NCBI GenBank assembly: GCA_005223125.1
Contig: NJBH01000016.1
Span: 1-64,000 of the forward strand
DNA length: 64,000 bases
Reading direction: 5' to 3'
Origin: Promethearchaeota archaeon Loki_b32
Lineage (GTDB): Archaea; Asgardarchaeota; Lokiarchaeia; Sigyniarchaeales; SOKP01
The translations under genes and the position numbers were made by a program. The first letter of the stretch is position 1; the number at the start of each line of letters is the position of its first letter. This document shows, piece by piece, positions 1 through 15,827 of the stretch. Below the pieces are notes generated by a model. It was given only the letters and a program-made list of their open reading frames with translations, did no database searches and had not been told where the DNA came from.

Positions 1-281
1 AAGAAGAGAGAGGAGGAGAGTGTAAGAGCGAAGGGAGGCTATGGAGAGGTGGAGAGGAGGGATGGCGGAATAGAGAGAGGGACAGAGAGAGCGAGAGTGA
101 GGGAGTGAGAGGAGGTATACATGTACACAAAGGGGGTTAGAGAGATAGAGTGAGTGTGGCAGCGAGACAGAGTTAGAGAGAGAGTGAATGTGGCAGAGAG
201 AGGGAATGTGGCAGAGCGACAGAGTGAGAGAGTGAAAAGGCGAGATAGAGGCAGGCAGAGGCAGGCAGACAGAGGCAGAGA
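1..281. repeat. GA-rich low-complexity / degenerate (GA)n microsatellite tract
   Basis: Nearly pure purine run (gagagagagg, gacagagagagcgagag, ggcagaggcagg repeats) unlike anything else in the window. Confidence 0.9.
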
Positions 282-1110
282 CTTTTTGGTAATTGGTTCG
301 GTAATATTAGAGTGAGGGAATTGGACACCATTTTAGCTGGGCCACATGAGACTTGCAGTACAATGAGAGGAAATTCGAGCTGTGAGGTTTTAGAATGTTG
401 TACAGAATACAGCATCCATCCGTGATTAGTGCTTAAATGAAGGAGCTTGTCCGCGCCATTTGATTAGTTACCCACTCCATCCACTTTTTACAAATATGGA
501 TGGGAAATAGAATTTGATAAGATCCCACTTTAAAAAAATGTGTATATATTGAATGTCCCAGACATAGGTTGATTGAAAGTCTCAGACGTGGTTGGACGCC
601 CATTCACACATGGAAACAGACTGGTAAGCGATAGTCCTCAGAGAACATATCAATAATTGCATTACTCCCACGGAAAACCCTTGGGCGATAGACGCACGGA
701 CAGACAGATTAAAGGAGGCACTGGTGGGACATCAGCAGGGAGTGGTGGGGAATAACACCCGGCTGTCATGGATGTATAGTGGAAAAATGGCGTTGATATT
801 CCCCGGAGATTTGGGAAGGTAAGAATGACGAAAGCAGAAGGGTTGTAGTGATGGTGGATGACCTCCACTGGGAGATGGCCGTGGTAGAAACCTTCAAGGC
901 ATTGATGGACTGACTGTCTGACTAGATGAGGAGACTCAAGGTGGAGGAGTTTTAGCGCTGGTGGTGTACCCTCATTAGAGTCTGTACCTCTTTACCTCAT
1001 CAGGGGCAGACCCTACAGTGCCTGGGTGCCAACAGAATGCCTCAATTCACCCAAGACTGCAGAGGCAAAACCTTCATGAAATATTTAAAGGGTGCAGAGT
1101 ACCTTCAAGG
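1..1110. other. Compositionally foreign segment (probable eukaryotic contaminant or chimeric join); right boundary approximate
   Basis: Visibly higher GC than the rest, microsatellite, no credible ORF; abrupt switch to very AT-rich sequence near 1110. Confidence 0.7.
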
Positions 1111-6274: not shown

Positions 6275-6907
6275 ATGCTCAAAAAGGAGAAAAAAGATTT
6301 GAACGATAGTAAAAACATAAAAGAGAAAAGATTAACCATTCATACTACTATTACTGAAAAAGCAAATGGATTATTAGAAAAATACGCTGATTTAAAAGAT
6401 GACAACGGTAATAAGATTTTTGGACATAAATCTAAGGTAATTGAGAGGGCATTAGAATTGCTTGATCAACATTATTATCCTGATAAAGAAGATCAACACA
6501 CTATTTGGAATAGAGCGAGGGAAGAACTTAATATGGTATTAGTTGGAAAAACGACATTTCTTTCTTATATTTCTGGAGATTACAAGAAAGCTTTTAGAGA
6601 AAACATTGCGATTGATATTTTAGAGTGGTATAAAAATAAAAATATCGTCGAAATGTCCTTAATTGAGCTTTTAGATTCAATTAAAGATGTTTGGTTAAGC
6701 GCAAATTACTTTTATAAAATAGATAGTGAAGTTGGGAGTAAGGGTAGTTATCAAATGTCGTTTTACCATGATTTACATAGTAAAAGATATAGTGATTTTT
6801 GGGGAAATTATTTTAGTGAGTTATTGTCCCATCAAAAGCAATGTGATGTTGAGATTTTTGCTAGACATGAATCTTTGATTTTAAGGATTTCTTCATCAAA
6901 AAAATGA
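6275..6907 (+). CDS. Hypothetical regulator: N-terminal ribbon-helix-helix-like segment plus V4R/HNOB-like C-terminal domain
   Basis: TIHTTIT beta strand, helix and SKVIERALELL helix; C-terminal alpha/beta region with FYHD...YSDFW; fold call is by pattern only. Confidence 0.55.
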   Translation: MLKKEKKDLNDSKNIKEKRLTIHTTITEKANGLLEKYADLKDDNGNKIFGHKSKVIERALELLDQHYYPDKEDQHTIWNRAREELNMVLVGKTTFLSYISGDYKKAFRENIAIDILEWYKNKNIVEMSLIELLDSIKDVWLSANYFYKIDSEVGSKGSYQMSFYHDLHSKRYSDFWGNYFSELLSHQKQCDVEIFARHESLILRISSSKK

Positions 6908-6932
6908 GTTTAAGTTTTAGTCTGGATCGATG

Positions 6933-6980
6933 GTTTGAGATGAGACGAGAAGGAGTATGTTCATGAGTAGCAATTTTAAT
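6933..6980 (+). repeat. Inter-gene repeat family L, copy 1
   Basis: gtttgagatgagacgagaaggagtatgttcatgag; 26 nt identical to copy 2 and 23 nt identical to copy 3. Confidence 0.9.
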
Positions 6981-7550
6981 TTTTCTTTTTTATTATATGA
7001 TTTATTTATGAGGATTTTTTATAGATATATAGTGGAGCCAACATATTTATTCAAACTTTTAATTATTGGTGATAGAGAGGTTGGGAGACGTACCTTTCTT
7101 AGAGAGTCAATAGATGATAATTTTTTTGTTGAAGATTATATAGAAACCGTGGGAGTAGATATTTATAGAAAGGAGCTAATTGTTGAAGAAGGTGTAATTG
7201 ATTTAATGATTTGGAATGTTTCTACCAAAGAAACCTTTGGAACTCTTTTAACATCATACATAAATACATCAGATGGAGTACTCCTAATGTTTGATATAAC
7301 AAATTTAAGTACGCTATATTTTCTATCCAAGTATCCACAATTGATTAGAGAAAAAGCTGGAGAGATACCTATTTTATTAGTTGGCAATAAACTTGATTTA
7401 AAATGGAAGCGTGAAGTATATGTAGAAGAAGGGGCTGCATTCGCAAGAGGTAATGATTTATTGGATTATATCGAGGTTTCTGCTAAGACAGGGAAAGATT
7501 GTGAAAAAATACTTGAAGTTTTAGTGGAAAATATATTAGTTCAATTTTAA
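6957..7550 (+). CDS. Rab/Ras-like small GTPase with degenerate G1 and G3 (true start probably ATG 7008 or GTG 7032)
   Basis: FKLLIIGDREVGRRT, YIETVGVD, LMIWNVST, LMFDIT, LVGNKLD, IEVSAKTG. Confidence 0.85.
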   Translation: MFMSSNFNFSFLLYDLFMRIFYRYIVEPTYLFKLLIIGDREVGRRTFLRESIDDNFFVEDYIETVGVDIYRKELIVEEGVIDLMIWNVSTKETFGTLLTSYINTSDGVLLMFDITNLSTLYFLSKYPQLIREKAGEIPILLVGNKLDLKWKREVYVEEGAAFARGNDLLDYIEVSAKTGKDCEKILEVLVENILVQF

Positions 7551-7589
7551 ATTCAAGATTAATTATTTATTAACTTGGAGAAGTAAGGA

Positions 7590-7635
7590 TTTAGAACGAG
7601 ACGAGAAGGAGTATGTTCATGAGCAAGGTTTTAAT
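7590..7635 (+). repeat. Inter-gene repeat family L, copy 2
   Basis: gagacgagaaggagtatgttcatgag at 7598-7623 identical to 6942-6967. Confidence 0.9.
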
Positions 7636-7680
7636 ATTTAATCTGTAAATATATTTAAAAGATTCTAAATTATAAGGGTT

Positions 7681-8232
7681 ATGCTCACCAATTTAAAACC
7701 TTCAATAAAGGAACCGCTTATTGTCTATGGTACTGGGCTTATAATAACTGTTCTTTCAGGGATTTTTTTTTCTATTAGAGGTTATCCTTTAGTTACAACT
7801 GCTACTGAAACATTAAATATTATTAGCCCTCCCTCATACATGATTTCAATTTTTCTTCCTTATGGGATTTTAATAGGTGAGGTAATTTGGCTCTGGAATG
7901 AAAAAAAAGAACGCAATTTTTACATTTTATTATTAATTGAATGTATCATCGTTGCCATATTCTCTTTTACTCGATATATTATAAGTATTCCATTTAGCGG
8001 TCACACAATTATATTATTTTTTTATTTGTCTCATCAAGCGATAAGTAATAGATTTCACCTTCCATTAAGATTTCTAATTGGAATAATAGTCCTTATTATA
8101 ACCATGATTTACAAAATTATTCTGTGGAACGATCCAATTACTTTTTTACTAGGGGCTCTATTAGGAATTGTTTTATGGCTTCCAGAATTTTTATATCAAC
8201 GAAAAAAAGTTTTAGTGAGCGGTGAAACATAA
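7681..8232 (+). CDS. Multi-pass membrane protein, possibly PAP2-like
   Basis: Six hydrophobic segments; PFSGH resembles the PSGH motif but other PAP2 motifs are unclear. Confidence 0.65.
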   Translation: MLTNLKPSIKEPLIVYGTGLIITVLSGIFFSIRGYPLVTTATETLNIISPPSYMISIFLPYGILIGEVIWLWNEKKERNFYILLLIECIIVAIFSFTRYIISIPFSGHTIILFFYLSHQAISNRFHLPLRFLIGIIVLIITMIYKIILWNDPITFLLGALLGIVLWLPEFLYQRKKVLVSGET

Positions 8233-8274
8233 GCTGGAAGTAAAAAGGGTTATGGAGTGGACCAGTAAGTATAT

Positions 8275-8322
8275 GTTTGAGATGAGACGAGAAGGAGAAT
8301 GTTCTAGAGCAGCGAATTTGAT
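8275..8322 (+). repeat. Inter-gene repeat family L, copy 3
   Basis: gtttgagatgagacgagaaggag at 8275-8297 identical to 6933-6955, continuing aatgttctagagcagc. Confidence 0.9.
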
Positions 8323-8562
8323 AATTCTATTTGTTTCAATTATTTTAAATATGTTCTTTATTATATAATCAAATGAGAATAGCAAGTATATTCAAATAAT
8401 TAAAATATTCAATCCTATGTCAAGAGCTATTGACATCTTCAATGCTTCGCTTTATCTACTATCTGGTTTGTTATGCTATAATAACTACCATTTTATGATA
8501 ACTGGGTGAGAAAAACATTTTAACTTAAAGTAAACAAGTAATTAAAATACAAATTCTTTATC

Positions 8563-9446: not shown

Positions 9447-9716
9447 TTATAAAGGAAACACTTGCTCGGCTTCCTTCTCATCATACTCCACTTCTCGTAA
9501 GCGCATCCGAATTTCTCGCGGAGTAAATGAAGCTTTCAAGATTTCTAACACATTATCATGCAAAGCTTTTAAATTATCTACCGCTGCCGCATGGTAGAAG
9601 TCTTTCTCATTAAAATTAATCGTGATAATATCGCTTAAGCCCGAAAGCGCTTCGCGAATGTTCTTATAACTGGCCATCACATCATCCAATTTTTCTTCAT
9701 TTTCTATAGGTCCCAT
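9447..9716 (-). CDS. Small acidic helical hypothetical protein
   Basis: 89 aa, natural composition, SD-like GAGGT upstream, GC-richer codons than neighbours. Confidence 0.8.
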   Translation of the reverse strand: MGPIENEEKLDDVMASYKNIREALSGLSDIITINFNEKDFYHAAAVDNLKALHDNVLEILKASFTPREIRMRLREVEYDEKEAEQVFPL

Positions 9717-10307
9717 TTTATTACCTCAATTTTTTTATTGTTTTACAATTAATGATAATAAATTTCAGTATATAAATGTGACGATTTTCGATCATTATGT
9801 TGCGGTGAAGCGATCAATCTTTTACATAATTCGAGCAAAATTAATGTTTACAATCACAAATTTTATCGGTTTGAAAAATCTTAAATTCGATAAAATGATG
9901 ATTTTTAGTGACGAAAAACGGCGATGGTGTTCGGTTTCGTTAATGGATCCTGGCATCATTTCGAATCATGATCATTTTTTTGTCGTTGGATGACCGAAGG
10001 GTGACTTTGCCCACCAGATTTTGCATTTTTCGGTCATGAGCATTCCGAAATCGTTTCTCAATTTCTAGACAAAAAATAGTGAAAATGAGGTAGTCCCCAA
10101 AAAGATCCCACTGCACTATGAGATCATTTTTCCGTCATTTTGTAGGAATTAAAATTACTAAAAATTTGATTATGACTTTTTTCGCACTTTTTAGTCGGGA
10201 TTTTGACCGAAAACATTTAAATATGAGGGTGATAATTATTAGATCAGTCAAAAAAATTAAAAAACTTACTAAAAAAAATCAAAAAAGTAGGATGTGAGTG
10301 AGGAAAA
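9717..10307. promoter_or_regulatory. Divergent intergenic region with multiple TTTTC(G/C)(G/A)TCA-like boxes on both strands and seven GATC sites
   Basis: ttttcgatca 9785, tgacgaaaaa 9909, tgaccgaagg 9991, ttttcggtca 10027, ttttccgtca 10128, tgaccgaaaa 10204; GATC at 9790, 9812, 9946, 9970, 10104, 10122, 10242. Confidence 0.6.
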
Positions 10308-10649
10308 ATGGAACAAATCCCAAAAATAGAAGAAAAGGTAGAACAGCTAACAGACATCCAAAGAAGCGAAATTTACGAGTATGCTCGGAGGGTCAGTCGA
10401 GAGACGATAGAAGAAGTTTGTCCCGCACTTTTACGTTTAGCCTTAGATTCAGAGAGGGGGAAGCTCAAAAATCAGTTGGGGATGGTAATTTTCCACCTTC
10501 AGAAGAATGAGCGTATTAGTACCGTGATTGGGCTCCAAAAGTTGTTGGATGCGGCTTTAATAGTTAATCCTGAGGAGTTGTTTAAAATTCTCGAAAGTGC
10601 CGACGAGGGAGCTCAGGAGTTAGCCAAAAAAATTAAAGGAATATTATAA
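10308..10649 (+). CDS. Small all-helical hypothetical protein; its 3' end is the template of repeat family R
   Basis: 113 aa, SD-like GTGAGG upstream; downstream copies differ mostly at synonymous sites, supporting this reading frame. Confidence 0.9.
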   Translation: MEQIPKIEEKVEQLTDIQRSEIYEYARRVSRETIEEVCPALLRLALDSERGKLKNQLGMVIFHLQKNERISTVIGLQKLLDAALIVNPEELFKILESADEGAQELAKKIKGIL

Positions 10650-10710
10650 TTCGGAAAAAAAAAAATGAAATTAAAATAATTTTTTCACTTATTTAGTGTA
10701 TAATTTTATT

Positions 10711-11007
10711 TTACTTTTTTAAATCGTCTATAACTTCTTGAACTTGATCTACTGTTGCGATTGCTTTTATATCAAATTTGGTAAACGGAACATATTTTTG
10801 TAATGCTTTACCAAGTTCTACCTCAGATGCTTCCATGATGCTATAACCATTTGTTTCCCCTGCGAATGCTCCCCAATCCTTTGTTATACCTTCTTGTATA
10901 TCTTTCTTAACTAAAGCTACTAAACCATTCCAACCGATGCCTCTTTCTTTTCGATCGATTGGAATTTTAGTCCAATCTACTTCCCATAAGACTAAATATT
11001 TACCCAT
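10711..11007 (-). CDS. DUF3303-like small alpha/beta protein (cassette cargo 1)
   Basis: KYLVLW...DWGAFAGETNGYSIMEA...LQKYVPFTKF pattern. Confidence 0.7.
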   Translation of the reverse strand: MGKYLVLWEVDWTKIPIDRKERGIGWNGLVALVKKDIQEGITKDWGAFAGETNGYSIMEASEVELGKALQKYVPFTKFDIKAIATVDQVQEVIDDLKK

Positions 11008-11153
11008 AAATTATCACTCTCTTAAATTTTTTTGATTTGAAATTTTTAAATTATTGGACGTTCATGTACAAATTTCTGTACCAAGATTCTTATTATTTCA
11101 CACTATTTAAAAATTCTTCTTGAAATTAAAAGAAAATTTGGAATTGAAGGGGA

Positions 11154-11288
11154 ATTAACGCGGTAATTGCCCTACAGGAATTGCTTGATGCGGCGTTGAT
11201 TGTGGCTCTTGAGGAGCTGTTTAAAATTATTGAGAGTTCGGATGAGGAAGTTCAGGAATTAGCCAAAAAAATAAAAGAGATATTATAA
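11154..11288 (+). repeat. Repeat family R copy 1: displaced 3' end of the 10308-10649 gene
   Basis: Translates INAVIALQELLDAALIVALEELFKIIESSDEEVQELAKKIKEIL* versus ISTVIGLQKLLDAALIVNPEELFKILESADEGAQELAKKIKGIL*; no start codon or N-terminal part. Confidence 0.95.
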
Positions 11289-11417
11289 ATTTTTTTTCAA
11301 TCTAAAGTTTTGGAATGGATTTTTGAAATTCGTAGTTAAATATTTTAGCTTTCTTCCGTGTTCTTGAATTCGAAGGTGTAGCTTTCTCTTCATGACTGAA
11401 AAAAATAACATGCGTAC

Positions 11418-12278
11418 CTATCTATATATTTGAAACAACATTTTCCACATTCCTAAATCTAAATATTCTTTTCTTGGTCTTAAATAATACATCATGTAAC
11501 ACTTTAGTACCCATCTCTCTAAGTTTTCTTTATGTTTTATGATTTGTTTTCCCGAAGTATAATTAAAGTAATTGAAATCCGTGATTAAATCATCTTTTAT
11601 GTATTTTTCATAAATTTTTGTACCTGGTAGAGGGATTAAAATTCTGAAAGATACTATTGTAGGATCCATCTTTTTAGCAAACTGTATCGTTGCATTCAAA
11701 TCAGAATTTGTTTCATCTATATACCCTAATATAAAGAGACCAGTAAAAAAAATTCCTTTTTTCTTTAATCTCTCAGCAGATTTTAAAACATCCTTTTTTT
11801 TTATTCTCTTATTGTAGGATTTCAGTATTTTTTCAGAACCTGACTCAACACCTAAAAACAAATGCATACAGCCAGATTTTTTGAATAAATCCAATATATC
11901 TTCACTAATATTCGCTATAGTATCGACTCTAGCATTTGCATCCCAATAAATTTTAATTCCTTCTTCCATTATTTTATTGCATATTTCTTCTACTCTTTCG
12001 ATTGATACCATAAAATTATCATCAACAAAAAAAACCATTGGTCTCTTGCCTTCTGGTCCACTTACCTTTTTTATATTAGGATGGTTTTTGATTAGTTCTT
12101 TAATCTCTTCAATAATATTCGCTGCAGATCTATGTCTCCATTTTAACCCATCTTTTCCGGAAACTTGGCAAAATGTACATCCAAAAGGACATCCCCTCGA
12201 AGTCGAAACGGTAAAAGCATGAGTTCCATATTTTTCAAGAGGTACCAAATGTCTTGCTGGAAAAGGTAATTTATCCAA
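11418..12278 (-). pseudogene. Radical SAM protein of the B12-binding class, lacking its N-terminal cobalamin domain (cassette cargo 2)
   Basis: LPFPARHL linker, SRGCPFGCTFC, FFVDDNF, GVESGS, PLPGT; ORF begins at the inter-domain linker. Confidence 0.75.
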
Positions 12279-12426
12279 ATCTGCGATAAAATTATCGCTA
12301 TAGATCTTGTTCTATCCAAATTAGACCAATATTCAATAATAATCATTTATAAAAAATTGATTTGCACAAAATTCTTTAACTGTATTGACAGGGAACAAAT
12401 TGGAATTGCAGGATGCTGTATAGAAA

Positions 12427-12560
12427 TTTAACACGGTGATTGGGCCCAAAAGTTGCTTGATGCGGCTTTAATCGTCAATCCTGAGGAGAAGTTTAAGATT
12501 CTCGAGAGTGCCGACGAGGGCGCCCAAGAGTTAGCGAAAAAAATTAAGAGTATCTTATAG
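12427..12560 (+). repeat. Repeat family R copy 2: displaced 3' end of the 10308-10649 gene
   Basis: TVIG-QKLLDAALIVNPEEKFKILESADEGAQELAKKIKSIL*; 12 synonymous and 2 non-synonymous codon changes and one 1-nt deletion versus the intact gene. Confidence 0.95.
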
Positions 12561-13316
12561 GTTATTTTTACATACTATTTCTTTTCTACTATTCATAGAA
12601 TTTTATTTGGTGGATATTTTTGCATTTTTTTATAATCCTAGACGGTAGCATGAAAGCTTTGACAATTTGCCAAAAATACTTTAATATTAAATAGATCTTA
12701 GAATAGTTTGGGTTCACACGATCTTTTGTGGATACAAAGTTAATTGATAATATGGAGAAAAATGGTATAAATCATTTCTCATTTTGATTAAGAGTCTTTT
12801 TTAAAAAATTAATACAGTATTGGGGATAATTATACCTATCAGTATAAAAAGAAAATCAATCTACATATAATATCACCTAAGAAGGGAATTCATAGACAAT
12901 CTGAATAAACATTGGATTTCGCCCTCTATTAAACTCTATTAAGTTTAATTCACTCCCTTATTTTAAAAAATTGATTCAGATTTCTCTTCTCTTCTTTTTC
13001 TTTAACATTTGAAGATTTTTGGTTCAACAGATTGTAAATTAAATAAGTCTTTAACGCCCTCTCCATCTCTATCTGGTGGTGGGGGATTATCTTGTCCTGA
13101 GTTTGAACTGCCACATTCACAATCAGTATACCCTGTATAATTAAGGATCCAATTAAATACAGTATCACAATAGTAAACCGCTTGATTTAGGTTGTGGGTT
13201 CTACAATTGATTTTTAGAGAGAGTAAGGGCTTAAATTAAATATTACCTAAGATAACAATTAAAAGGTAAAATCAAAAATTGTCAAAATTTTAAAGAAAAA
13301 TTTAAATTAATAAAAA

Positions 13317-13361
13317 GCGGATGCTCAGGAGTTAGCAAAAGAAATTAAGAATATATTATAA
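13317..13361 (+). repeat. Repeat family R copy 3 (short)
   Basis: gcggatgctcaggagttagcaaaagaaattaagaatatattataa = ADAQELAKEIKNIL*. Confidence 0.9.
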
Positions 13362-13367
13362 ATCTAT

Positions 13368-14291
13368 TTATAAATCCAACTCCCAATCTTCTTCGGTTAA
13401 GGTTTGTCCCCAAATAGGGTGTGTTTTGGAATTAACTAATTGAAATCCATTTTTTTCATATAACCTACGAGCCATTTTAAGGTCGCTGAACGTCCCTAGA
13501 ATAATTTTTTTATAACCTTGATATTTACAGAAACTAATTGCTTCATACATTAGTTTTGTCCCGATTCCCTTATTTCGTGCATAGGGTTCAACGAGAAGCC
13601 AACGTAGTTGCGCAATGTTGTCGTTTACATTAACAATGGCAATTGAACCAACAACCTCAGTTCCAATCTCAACAATCCATAAACAATCTTTAGCGGGATC
13701 ATAATTTTCAACGAATTGCGCCATATATTTAGCTACATAAGCTTCAAACGTTTCATCGAGCTGATATTCCATTGTATAAATCACTCCATGTCGATATGTG
13801 ATATACCCTATATCACCCGGTTTATGAGATCGTATGCTATAAAATTCTGACTTCTCTGGTTCTCTTTTTAAAATTCTCTCAATAACTTCCATTGAATTGA
13901 CAAGTTTATTTTGATCCTCATCTGTTAAATTGGATAATAACATTATAATTTGTTCACTTGCTCTCTCTTGAAGTTCTGAAATCAAATCCTTTCCCGTGGA
14001 TGTTAATGAAAGCAATCGTTTTCGCATATCCTTACTTGAACGTTCTTTTAGAATCAAATTTTTTTCTTCAAAACTACTCAATATACGGCTGAGATATGCA
14101 GGATCCAAGTTTAGTAGTTTTACAATTTCACTCGCAGTTGAAGTTGATAAGTTGTTAAGTTCAAATAAGATTCTCACGTCAGTTAAAGAATATGCACTTT
14201 TCAATAAAGTTTTATCTAAAAGCCCTAGTAAATTGGTATAGAAACGGTTAAAACTTCGAATTTTCCCAATTCTTTCTGTTTTTTCTATCAT
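13368..14291 (-). CDS. MarR-family HTH / GNAT acetyltransferase fusion (cassette cargo)
   Basis: IRSFNRFYT...LDPAYLSRIL...D-R...LT-G MarR domain; QLRWLLVEPYARNKGIGTKLM, ARRLYEKNGF GNAT motifs. Confidence 0.92.
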   Translation of the reverse strand: MIEKTERIGKIRSFNRFYTNLLGLLDKTLLKSAYSLTDVRILFELNNLSTSTASEIVKLLNLDPAYLSRILSSFEEKNLILKERSSKDMRKRLLSLTSTGKDLISELQERASEQIIMLLSNLTDEDQNKLVNSMEVIERILKREPEKSEFYSIRSHKPGDIGYITYRHGVIYTMEYQLDETFEAYVAKYMAQFVENYDPAKDCLWIVEIGTEVVGSIAIVNVNDNIAQLRWLLVEPYARNKGIGTKLMYEAISFCKYQGYKKIILGTFSDLKMARRLYEKNGFQLVNSKTHPIWGQTLTEEDWELDL

Positions 14292-14330
14292 TACACCTCA
14301 TTCTATATAATGATTTGTGCAATTTAAACT

Positions 14331-14367
14331 TTGACAAAGTCAACTAAATACTTGATAAGATCAAGTA
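14331..14367. promoter_or_regulatory. Two tandem inverted repeats, probable MarR operator
   Basis: TTGAC-aaa-GTCAA (14331-14343) and TACTTGAT-aag-ATCAAGTA (14349-14367), 40-76 nt upstream of the MarR-GNAT start. Confidence 0.7.
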
Positions 14368-14416
14368 AATATTCAAACTCCCTTTTTATTTCATGAAATA
14401 ATTAATTAGACCTTAA

Positions 14417-14455
14417 ACTCAGGAGTTAGCCAGAAAAATTAAGGGAATATTATAG
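14417..14455 (+). repeat. Repeat family R copy 4 (short)
   Basis: actcaggagttagccagaaaaattaagggaatattatag = TQELARKIKGIL*. Confidence 0.9.
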
Positions 14456-14500
14456 TTTTTTTAATAATTAAACTTTTTTAGATGAGATTATAGTTTTGAT

Positions 14501-15661
14501 TTATTTAATATAATTGGAATCATAATCTTTTAAAGCATCTGTTAGAACCAAACACACTTTCTTCAAAAGGTTCGTATCGATTTTGTCGATTGTATCATTA
14601 GGGGTATGCATATAAGCATATGCTTCCACTTCACCAATACCATATCCTTGAAGACCTCTATCTCCTAAAAAACCTCCATCGGAATGAGTGCCGAAAACTC
14701 TATTCGTAATGAAATGGTTAATCCTAAGATCTCTTTTGTTATTTATTAACAAATTATCAATATCCTTAGCGTGATCCCCTTCTTTACCTCCTGGGAATAG
14801 AAATGCATGTTTGGCTATAGATTCAAAATTAAAAATTATCGATTTCTCAGTATCAAAATTTTCCAGATTATTATAAAAATGCCTGATCCCCATAGTTCCG
14901 CATTCTTCAGCGCCAGTAAAGAGGAACCAGAGGTTAAAGTTTGTTAATCTGTTTTCTGGAATGGTATAGTAATTTACAAGTTCTAAATTACATGCTATAC
15001 CGGAAGCGTTATCTACAGCACCAATAGAACTATTATCTGTAGTGTTAAGAATCATTATTATTGAGGCAAATATGTTTAATATTAAGGGAAACACCCCGAT
15101 AATATAAAAAATTAGTTCTAATCCTATAAATACTGAGTTTTTAAGGATGATAATAGCAGCTAGAACAATTGATGAAGAGATCCAAAGCTTAATTATTCTT
15201 ATCCGTATTCTAACTTTGAATCTTTGGGCCTTGGAATCCAAATGACTCATAAACAATGCAATTCTGTCATTATTCTTTATATCATTTGATATAGACTTAA
15301 TCTTTACAAGAAGGTTCTGTGAACGTAATCTTGAAATGAATTGAATCTTTTCCGGATTTCTCGTTAATATAATAGAGGCAATCAATATACTTAGTAATAT
15401 GTGTATTAAAATCAAAGACATAATCATTAAAATATTCAAATATAGTAGGAATATTATTAAAGAAAAGGATAAAAATGCTATTTTAGGATATAATCTCGAA
15501 TAAAACGAACTGAACGTAAATCGTTGGATTTCAAATTCTAGATTCAAATTCTCTACAGCTCTTTTTACTTTATTAAAAGCTTTAAGTTCAAATTCTGTTC
15601 CAGATAATCGAGGAAAAGCAAACTCTTTAAGATTTTTTTTAATTCGGGCTTCTTCAATCAT
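14501..15661 (-). CDS. M28 family metallopeptidase with inserted TM helices
   Basis: PRLSGT, SHLDSK, GAVDNASG, GAEECG, SD, HTPNDT. Confidence 0.88.
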   Translation of the reverse strand: MIEEARIKKNLKEFAFPRLSGTEFELKAFNKVKRAVENLNLEFEIQRFTFSSFYSRLYPKIAFLSFSLIIFLLYLNILMIMSLILIHILLSILIASIILTRNPEKIQFISRLRSQNLLVKIKSISNDIKNNDRIALFMSHLDSKAQRFKVRIRIRIIKLWISSSIVLAAIIILKNSVFIGLELIFYIIGVFPLILNIFASIIMILNTTDNSSIGAVDNASGIACNLELVNYYTIPENRLTNFNLWFLFTGAEECGTMGIRHFYNNLENFDTEKSIIFNFESIAKHAFLFPGGKEGDHAKDIDNLLINNKRDLRINHFITNRVFGTHSDGGFLGDRGLQGYGIGEVEAYAYMHTPNDTIDKIDTNLLKKVCLVLTDALKDYDSNYIK

Positions 15662-15827
15662 TTTATGGGTACAAAGGATAATAAAATATATACTTAAGTA
15701 AAGTTGTTTAATTTTTATTTATTTTTCTACTATAGATTTGGGAGAACTAAAAAATAAAAGTCGAAAATTTAGAAAAATAAAATACTAATTTGATATTCTG
15801 GTTCCTTATGTCCATAAATTAAGTGAA

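What the first reader, a model, noticed from the sequence alone, without database searches (positions are those of the whole stretch)
10308..15661. Integrase-less gene-cassette array built on repeated 3' ends of a small protein-coding gene
Seen: the last 13-45 codons of the 10308-10649 gene recur four times in direct orientation (11154-11288, 12427-12560, 13317-13361, 14417-14455; unit lengths 639, 1272, 801, 1094 nt). Every copy ends exactly at the stop codon. The intact end and three of the copies are each followed by one convergent cargo gene (DUF3303-like, truncated radical SAM, MarR-GNAT, M28 peptidase); the remaining unit is decayed. Copy 2 differs from the intact gene at 12 synonymous but only 2 non-synonymous codons, so it diverged while still a functional gene end, not as junk after local duplication. 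The two long copies start at almost the same position (around ISTV, ~10515-10523) and the two short ones near GCTCAGGAGTTAGC (~10611), hinting at preferred crossover points. Established: integrative elements that target a gene's 3' end restore the gene and displace the old end. Here the units are single-gene size and no recombinase is nearby. Inference: an integron-like accretion system in which small DNA units carrying an allelic gene end plus one cargo gene insert serially, also swapping the host protein's C-terminus. This is the best candidate for an undescribed system in the window.
Basis: partly seen in the sequence, partly recalled or inferred. Interest (0 to 1): 0.9.

Follow-up and report, generated by a model that had tools for sequence, protein, structure and literature searches.

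The report
Stacked gene-end scars from integrase-free insertions
Behind a small conserved gene of an Asgard archaeon lie four leftover copies of its tail with other genes between them; they are scars of repeated DNA imports from related lineages, and the same scar sits behind about 30 other genes and the 23S rRNA gene, so this is a genome-wide habit of ordinary recombination and not a dedicated cassette machine.

Summary
The four direct copies of the 113-aa gene's 3' end are real, with the stated spacings and 12 silent versus 2 replacement codons in copy 2. Assembled pieces from four studies bridge copies 1 and 3 with both flanks, and fewer studies bridge copies 2 and 4. The host is a Lokiarchaeon; 12 of 23 congener loci carry similar fragments with other cargo.

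The integron reading fails. 5' boundaries run from nt 31 to 305 without significant clustering or motif, one cargo gene is cut mid-frame, and M28 is the usual neighbour, not cargo.

The scar is genome-wide: 40 downstream 3'-end copies at 32 genes (some probably paralog debris), including rpl2. The neighbouring 89-aa gene and the 23S rRNA trailer show it too. No recombinase lies near. None were found in 1.2 Mb of control DNA from outside the genus.

Best explanation: RadA-type, homology-anchored additive integration of DNA from related lineages, by single crossover of a circularised fragment or by homology-facilitated illegitimate recombination. Restoring the gene lets the product survive. The anatomy is published for bacteria; I found no report for archaea or at this density. 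This scan met it before in at least 61 genomes.

The parts
10308..10649 (+). Intact anchor gene, 113 aa, conserved in the genus, no known family; six-helix model
   Evidence: 213 homologues, the named ones Asgard archaea, chiefly Lokiarchaeota/Promethearchaeota; matched in 21 of 24 congeners; no Pfam, NCBIfam or PADLOC hit; model pLDDT 84.5
10711..11007 (-). Cargo 1, 98 aa, unknown family; resident in this locus in six relatives
   Evidence: directly behind the intact gene also in G003
11152..11288 (+). Displaced 3' end, copy 1 (gene nt ~206-342, 75-77% identical, 13 silent and 11 replacement codons); same 5' junction as in G049
11418..12292 (-). Cargo 2: C-terminal part (286-aa ORF) of a 455-aa B12-type radical SAM gene, cut in frame
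   Evidence: PF04055; full-length in G049, G001, G053, G069, G010; loose read ends continue into the full gene at 12292
12428..12560 (+). Displaced 3' end, copy 2 (nt ~209-342, 85% identical, 12 silent and 2 replacement codons, 1-nt deletion)
12561..13316 (.). Decayed unit: gene remnant at 13071-13205 and a multi-copy non-coding element at 12888-13004
   Evidence: read depth about 700 against 25 at the element in X1
13317..13361 (+). Displaced 3' end, copy 3 (nt 298-342); closer to the G001 allele (92.7%) than to the resident allele (80.5%)
13368..14291 (-). Cargo 3: MarR-GNAT fusion with its promoter region; lies behind M28 in about ten relatives but in front of it here
14417..14455 (+). Displaced 3' end, copy 4 (nt ~305-342); inferred to be the oldest end, still attached to the usual neighbour
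   Evidence: continuous 82% identity from this copy through M28 with G003
14501..15661 (-). M28 peptidase; usual downstream neighbour (inferred ancestral), not cargo
   Evidence: PF04389; directly behind the intact gene in G024, and downstream in at least 15 congener loci
9447..9716 (-). Divergent 89-aa conserved gene; a second anchor whose 3' ends are displaced leftwards in relatives
   Evidence: copies in G008 (two), G045, G046, G054, G065, and on own contig C45
9717..10307 (.). Conserved ~590-nt spacer between the two anchors, with repeated TGACHGAA boxes
   Evidence: alignment of 17 genomes; 4 boxes against 0.03 expected; no Rfam match
6892..8348 (+). Three displaced copies (6892-7003, 7580-7672, 8245-8348) of the 3' trailer of the 23S rRNA gene with single genes between: the same process on an RNA gene
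   Evidence: the repeat follows RF02540 directly in L204, L205 and own C48; matched in 43 of 53 congeners, often in clustered direct arrays

Best explanation
The array is a stack of scars left by general homologous recombination with DNA from related Lokiarchaeia lineages. Steps: (1, inferred) a piece of donor chromosome enters that starts inside the conserved gene and runs on into whatever follows that gene in the donor. (2, inferred) Its far end is joined illegitimately to a point inside the gene, either by circularising before a single crossover or by an illegitimate second junction. (3, shown as anatomy) The product is host 5' part + donor 3' end + donor cargo + junction + displaced old end + old neighbour. 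(4, inferred) Only events that rebuild the gene survive, so gene ends are what is left repeated; 3' scars outnumber 5' scars about 3:1 because the host promoter is kept. (5, partly shown) The copies then serve as homology for more insertions, swaps and deletions, and are eroded by later deletions. The most conserved sequences next to variable regions (this divergent gene pair, rpl2, the 23S rRNA end) collect the most scars. No dedicated recombinase or att site is involved. How the DNA enters the cell is not shown.
For: Silent excess at the locus (12:2) and genome-wide (306:224) shows the two ends diverged while both were functional. Boundaries vary without clustering or motif. The scan found 40 intergenic, direct, downstream 3'-end copies at 32 genes (median 95 nt, 2 kb away, 86% identical); with a looser filter there were 37 such genes against 2 in inverted orientation and 12 with 5' ends displaced upstream. 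Only two tyrosine recombinases exist, at least 38 kb from the nearest scar; no serine recombinase and no reverse transcriptase were found. Much of the cargo is locus-resident DNA in a new order, and the radical SAM gene is cut mid-frame. A 7-8-nt match (GAATTAAC) lies at the copy-1 junction between the donor-side sequence of G010/G011 and alleles of the gene (one case). The same anatomy occurs on 23S rRNA. Experimental precedent: in E. coli a partly homologous incoming fragment that circularises and crosses over once gives duplications of 109-950 bp (PMC3240628).
Against: No empty-site/donor/recipient trio at strain level was available, so no crossover was mapped. Many copies are closest to their own genome's allele (rank 1 of 27 in 13 of 31 cases), which a local duplication followed by allele replacement could also give. 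Copy 1, the nearest, is more decayed than copy 2, so strict front-loading order does not hold. Recombination at about 85% identity is demanding. ComEC was not found, and DprA was not found in three of four congeners sampled and only faintly in the fourth. Textbook HFIR usually deletes rather than duplicates (PMC3240628). Some of the 32 genes are probably remnants of tandem paralogs. The complete congener G006 had none in 400 kb.
Confidence: 0.68

Rival explanations
1. Remnants of integrase-encoding elements (prophage or ICE type, like e14 at icd) that targeted this gene's 3' end and then lost everything except cargo; later deletions blurred the boundaries.
For: Same end product as icd/icdC, which my scan recovers (165 nt, 9 silent and 2 replacement codons). 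Later erosion does happen: G067 and G018 share the same upstream flank but join the gene at nt 169 and about nt 272.
Against: It needs about 30 different protein-gene targets and total loss of every integrase. Only two tyrosine recombinases and no serine recombinase are in a 95.5% complete genome. Median insert is 2 kb, and boundaries reach back to nt 31.
Confidence: 0.12
2. Local tandem duplication (amplification) of the gene end plus downstream DNA, trimmed by deletions; the silent excess comes from later ordinary allele replacement of the intact gene.
For: Copies 2 and 4 are nearest to the resident allele. Cargo 1 and MarR-GNAT belong to this locus in relatives. One copy on contig C47 has about 200 nt without a mismatch.
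Against: Duplication should leave second copies of cargo or neighbours, and none exist in the genome. The radical SAM gene comes from another locus. Copies 1 and 3 are closer to other lineages' alleles (rank 6 and 11 of 27). The rpl2 copy has 25 silent and 0 replacement codons.
Confidence: 0.1
3. A dedicated integron-like system: a recombinase acting in trans excises and inserts single-gene circles at preferred sites in gene ends.
For: Serial arrays of single-gene units here, at an Lrp-like gene on C47 (5-6 copies) and behind 23S rRNA. There are apparent boundary groups near nt 164-177, 203-209, 272-274 and 298-305. Two unassigned tyrosine recombinases exist.
Against: Clustering is not significant and is expected from alignment starts at conserved stretches. 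No shared junction word (top 6-mer count 8 against background 8.25). Truncated and multi-gene units occur, and targets share no sequence. No convincing circle junction in four runs (contigs only).
Confidence: 0.06
4. Assembly artefact from merging strains.
For: The genome is a 71-contig MAG with 4.6% contamination, and allele variants are present in the runs.
Against: Junctions are bridged in unitigs from four studies. The copies are frameshifted or start-less and lie between full-depth unique genes. The copy-1 junction is shared with another species (G049).
Confidence: 0.02

Closest known systems
Single-crossover integration of a re-circularised incoming fragment, and homology-facilitated illegitimate recombination (HFIR) (PMC3240628; HFIR shown in Streptococcus pneumoniae, Acinetobacter baylyi, Pseudomonas stutzeri)
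   Same: One homologous anchor plus one illegitimate junction; variable-length duplication of the target (109-950 bp there, 35-297 nt here); no integrase; short microhomology possible.
   Different: Laboratory events in bacteria at very low frequency; classical HFIR deletes host DNA. Here the products are fixed, serial, between diverged alleles, at about 30 loci of an archaeon.
Insertion with long target duplication (Furuta, Abe, Kobayashi 2010, PMC2853133)
   Same: Genes inserted between long, variable, imperfect direct repeats with no other mobile element; mostly in naturally competent species.
   Different: Described for restriction-modification cargo with repeats mostly 93-100% alike, and no archaeal case survived their screen. 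Here the cargo is ordinary, repeats are gene ends at about 86% identity, and arrays are up to 4-7 deep.
Sequential displacement at T6SS effector, Rhs and CDI loci (Kirchberger et al. 2017, PMC5361080)
   Same: Serial insertion at a conserved anchor shifts older ends backwards into an array; ascribed to HFIR.
   Different: Confined to toxin-immunity loci under strong diversifying selection. Here the anchors are housekeeping, unknown and rRNA genes, and the swapped ends are nearly synonymous.
Integrative elements that restore a protein gene's 3' end (e14 at icd, leaving icdC; NC_000913.3)
   Same: Intact gene with replacement end, cargo, displaced old end (recovered by my scan).
   Different: Carries its own integrase and has a fixed core; 15 kb. 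None of that is present here.
Integrons
   Same: Array of short units separated by related repeats.
   Different: No IntI, no attI, no attC hairpins; repeats are coding ends with ragged 5' borders; cargo keeps its own promoters and either orientation.

Membership tests
Integron | IntI tyrosine recombinase beside the array | tested here: not met
   Two PF00589 genes, on contigs C36 and C3; none on C6. The genome is 95.5% complete.
Integron | attC-type sites with fixed crossover point and inverted-repeat structure | tested here: not met
   Repeats are coding 3' ends with 5' borders from nt 31 to 305; no inverted-repeat pair marks the copies; no Rfam match.
Integron | Promoterless, co-oriented, complete single-gene cassettes | tested here: not met
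   Cargo is convergent or mixed, keeps its upstream region, and may be truncated or multi-gene.
Integrase-driven genomic island at a gene 3' end | Target restored, old end displaced as a direct repeat | tested here: met
Integrase-driven genomic island at a gene 3' end | Integrase gene in the element and a constant att core | tested here: not met
Insertion with long target duplication | Direct repeat over 30 bp, variable length, insert under 20 kb, no mobility genes | tested here: met
   39-137 nt repeats, 0.5-1.1 kb units; genome-wide 35-297 nt
Insertion with long target duplication | Empty site in a relative | tested here: met
   G024 has the intact gene directly followed by M28; species-level, not strain-level
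Insertion with long target duplication | Restriction-modification cargo (as originally defined) | tested here: not met
   Cargo at this locus is radical SAM, MarR-GNAT and unknown genes
HFIR / single-crossover additive integration | Homologous anchor on one side, non-homologous junction on the other | tested here: met
   Alignments of junctions
HFIR / single-crossover additive integration | 3-10 bp microhomology at the illegitimate junction | tested here: inconclusive
   GAATTAAC at copy 1, but it could be a relic of a deleted copy; donors for other junctions are too diverged
HFIR / single-crossover additive integration | RecA/RadA dependence | not testable with these tools
   Needs genetics
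HFIR / single-crossover additive integration | Natural competence of the host | tested here: inconclusive
   Two DprA genes in this genome, patchy in congeners; no ComEC match. From my own knowledge, DprA beside a PRTase/ComF-like gene can also be an anti-phage module.
Retroposition (5'-truncated cDNA copies) | Reverse transcriptase and dispersed copies with transcript tails | tested here: not met
   No PF00078; most copies lie downstream of the parent in direct orientation; silent excess
Death-fold superfamily (for the 113-aa protein; side question) | Six-helix death-fold topology | tested here: inconclusive
   Death-fold chains fill most of the top 40 rows for two models, but best Z is 6.5 (rmsd 5.0, 85 aligned) and 6.1 (rmsd 3.7, 78 aligned); no Foldseek hit at E<=0.001

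The most novel reading that the evidence does not exclude
This Lokiarchaeia lineage has a specialised, possibly protein-assisted pathway that turns incoming chromosomal fragments from sister species into gene-end-anchored additive insertions at high rate. It would be a main route by which these Asgard genomes gain and reshuffle genes, leaving self-renewing cassette arrays behind conserved genes and the 23S rRNA gene.
Probability: 0.2. Interest if true: 0.75.

Novelty: new variant of a known kind. Interest (0 to 1): 0.45.

Why it matters
How Asgard archaea acquire their many accessory genes is open; the two Asgard mobilome papers I searched (PMC8813620, PMC11529989) describe integrase- and transposase-bearing elements and, in the passages I read, nothing like this. 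The scars give a countable and datable record of integrase-free gene gain: about 8-9 genes per Mb in this genome, about 4 per Mb in six congeners, and none in 1.2 Mb outside the genus (small samples). They also imply recombination between alleles about 15% diverged, even in rpl2 and at the 23S rRNA end, which matters for marker-gene phylogenies of Lokiarchaeia. The mechanism class itself is known, so this is a striking natural record rather than a new machine.

Tried and rejected
Fixed crossover core: not supported. Junction motif: none above background. Nearby or trans recombinase: two tyrosine recombinases far away, no serine recombinase. Retroposition: no reverse transcriptase. Excised circles: the 13360-to-12565 joint in run X5 has depth 3 and only 9 letters on one side, so it is no evidence; low-depth joints that skip units (X6 12618-14501, X1 10685-15712) are weak hints of population variants only. 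Chimerism of copy 1 between G049-like and G067-like halves: not shown, because the G067 link to the radical SAM gene is a deletion product. Extra mosaicism of the gene's 3' half: not shown. DprA as proof of competence: patchy, rejected as support. Naming the 113-aa protein: Pfam, NCBIfam, PADLOC, PDB sequence search and ESM Atlas gave nothing usable; only a weak death-fold resemblance. Structured RNA in the spacer or array: no Rfam match. Four literature searches for this anatomy in archaea or behind 23S rRNA returned nothing relevant; the library lacks most subscription papers. No tree of copies was built, because 39-135 nt is too short; nearest-allele ranks were used instead.


Full report
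Observation. The repeats are as described. A repeat search gives five members with spacings 639, 1272, 801 and 1094. All end at an in-frame stop, and their genome-wide E-values are 9e-21, 6e-36, 5e-5 and 2e-9. Copy 2 has 12 silent and 2 replacement codons plus a 1-nt deletion; copy 1 has 13 and 11. If a copy had decayed neutrally after local duplication, about 35% of differing codons would be silent (my estimate from a 21% silent-site share, counting silent change on both lineages); 12 of 14 has P=1.4e-4. Unitigs from four studies bridge the copies with unique flanks on both sides: copy 1 in two runs, copy 2 in one, copy 3 in four and copy 4 in three. A merged assembly is therefore unlikely, though no record spans the whole array.

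Host and relatives. Named homologues are Asgard archaea, chiefly Lokiarchaeota/Promethearchaeota, and 21 of 24 congeners match. The gene forms a conserved divergent pair with an 89-aa gene across a conserved spacer of about 590 nt. Downstream comes a variable stretch, then usually M28 and a GTPase-Lrp-MTHFR-Hdr block. Twelve of 23 loci with enough downstream DNA hold one to four fragments of the gene, nearly all 3' ends, with different cargo. In G024 M28 follows the intact gene directly, and in G003 the last copy plus M28 aligns continuously with copy 4 plus M28 here. I therefore read copy 4 as the oldest end, still attached to the usual neighbour (inference). MarR-GNAT lies behind M28 in about ten relatives but in front of it here. 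Cargo 1 recurs at this locus in six relatives, and its junction with copy 1 is shared with G049. The radical SAM gene is 455 aa at another locus in five relatives and is cut at about 12292 here. The cargo is thus pieces of relatives' chromosomes, not purpose-built cassettes.

Boundaries. Thirty independent 5' borders run from nt 31 to 305. Close pairs number 19 against 13.6 (uniform, p=0.09) or 19.1 (3'-weighted, p=0.5) expected. G067 and G018 share a flank but join the gene at different points, so later deletions also shorten copies. At copy 1 the donor-side sequence in G010 and G011 ends in GAATTAA(C/T), which alleles of the gene carry at the same point. That fits a microhomology junction but is a single, ambiguous case.

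The decisive result is that the pattern is not special to this gene. Comparing every ORF with its surroundings gave 40 intergenic, direct, downstream copies of 3' ends at 32 genes (median 95 nt, 2 kb away, 86% identical, 306 silent to 224 replacement codons). With a looser filter there were 37 such genes, against 2 in inverted orientation and 12 with 5' ends displaced upstream. Targets recognised by eye from their translations include uL2 (25 silent, 0 replacement), SAH hydrolase, GyrA, UvrC and an Lrp-like gene with five or six copies; some others are probably paralog debris. The neighbouring 89-aa gene has displaced ends in five relatives and on contig C45. The repeat in the left flank of the window (6892-8348) is the 3' trailer of the 23S rRNA gene. 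It follows RF02540 in L204, L205 and own contig C48, has ragged 5' borders, and forms direct clusters in many congeners. No 6-mer is enriched at junctions. The genome has two tyrosine recombinases, at least 38 kb from any scar, no serine recombinase and no reverse transcriptase.

Controls. The same scan found 5 genes in 1.2 Mb from six congeners, with none in 400 kb of the complete genome G006. It found none in 400 kb each of E. coli, a genome of another family and two genomes of other Asgard classes or orders pooled, while it did recover the known icd/icdC pair. These samples are small and not independent of kinship.

Mechanism. The anatomy is what results when a donor fragment holding a gene's 3' part and the DNA behind it is joined in by one homologous and one illegitimate junction. 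In E. coli, incoming partly homologous DNA that is trimmed, circularised and crossed over once gives duplications of 109-950 bp, about ten times more often than classical HFIR (PMC3240628). Either route fits. Shown here: anatomy, allelic divergence, lack of recombinase and core, genome-wide spread. Inferred: the route of entry, RadA dependence, selection for rebuilt genes as the reason ends are favoured, and reuse of copies as anchors; the last explains why the nearest copy is not the least decayed. DprA is present twice but patchy in relatives and ComEC was not found, so competence is open. Against a distant donor, 13 of 31 copies are nearest their own genome's allele, so donors are mostly close kin, and local duplication with later allele replacement remains a minor rival.

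Comparison. It works like insertion with long target duplication (PMC2853133), like sequential displacement at T6SS/Rhs loci (PMC5361080) and, in end product, like e14 at icd. It fails the tests for an integron and for an integrase-driven island. The passages I read in two Asgard mobilome papers do not describe it. Earlier notes of this scan record the same scar elsewhere in this genome and in at least 61 genomes of many lineages; these are unchecked AI notes and are not counted as support, but they suggest the process is general.

Verdict. Interest 0.45.

Noticed in passing
window 10308-10649 (and distant homologue P0255): AlphaFold models of the 113-aa protein and of a 97-aa distant homologue are six-helix bundles whose top structural neighbours are almost all death-fold domains (DED, CARD, PYD, DD), but only at Z 5-6.5 and rmsd 3-5. 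One family member hits Pfam EAD4 at E=0.004. A lead for an archaeal death-fold-like adaptor, not a result.
   Followed up: partly
window 6892-8348; G005:C28, G011:C160, G044:C35, G048:C39: Arrays of displaced 23S rRNA 3' trailers with single genes between, up to 6-7 matches on one contig, matched in 43 of 53 congeners; L207 holds an orphan piece of the 23S gene itself (model positions 2721-2973). No intact 23S gene lies on this contig.
   Followed up: partly
window 9717-10307: Conserved ~590-nt spacer with four TGACHGAA boxes (0.03 expected) and seven GATC (1.7 expected); function unknown, possibly a multi-site regulatory region.
   Followed up: partly
window 12888-13004; C21:234561-234675, C18:1793-1904, C10:9054-9140, C36:55717-55828: A non-coding element of about 115 nt with five copies in the genome and very high read depth in metagenomes; intergenic in all cases; not identified.
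   Followed up: partly
G000 C47:10544-22575: A second deep array: five or six displaced ends of an Lrp-like gene, one with about 200 nt identical to the intact gene, with toxin-antitoxin-like, MarR and membrane-protein cargo.
   Followed up: partly
G000 C45:3258-3411: A 90%-identical 3' end of the 89-aa gene on another contig; its orientation would fit C45 continuing from the left end of this contig. Not verified.
   Followed up: no
G000 C48:130901-133021 and C21:141318-143010: Two DprA genes, each followed by a gene that looks ComF/PRTase-like by eye; either competence or a defence module.
   Followed up: partly
G000 C48:89955-93418 and C68:17319-21347: Two 23S rRNA matches of very different length and score; the second shares little with the first at the 3' end (81% over 95 nt against a relative's 23S) and may be divergent, interrupted or contaminant.
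   Followed up: no
L031, L041, L044, L047, L049, L061 (upstream of the 89-aa gene): Several congeners carry a second MTHFR/MetV-like gene pair to the left of the divergent pair as well as the one in the Hdr block on the right.
   Followed up: no
G006:C1 2829370 and 3013987: In the complete congener genome the intact gene and the cargo-1/M28 block (with a short end remnant) are 184 kb apart and inverted, so the locus was a rearrangement breakpoint.
   Followed up: no
window 1-330: Strongly purine-rich, low-complexity contig end of unknown nature.
   Followed up: no
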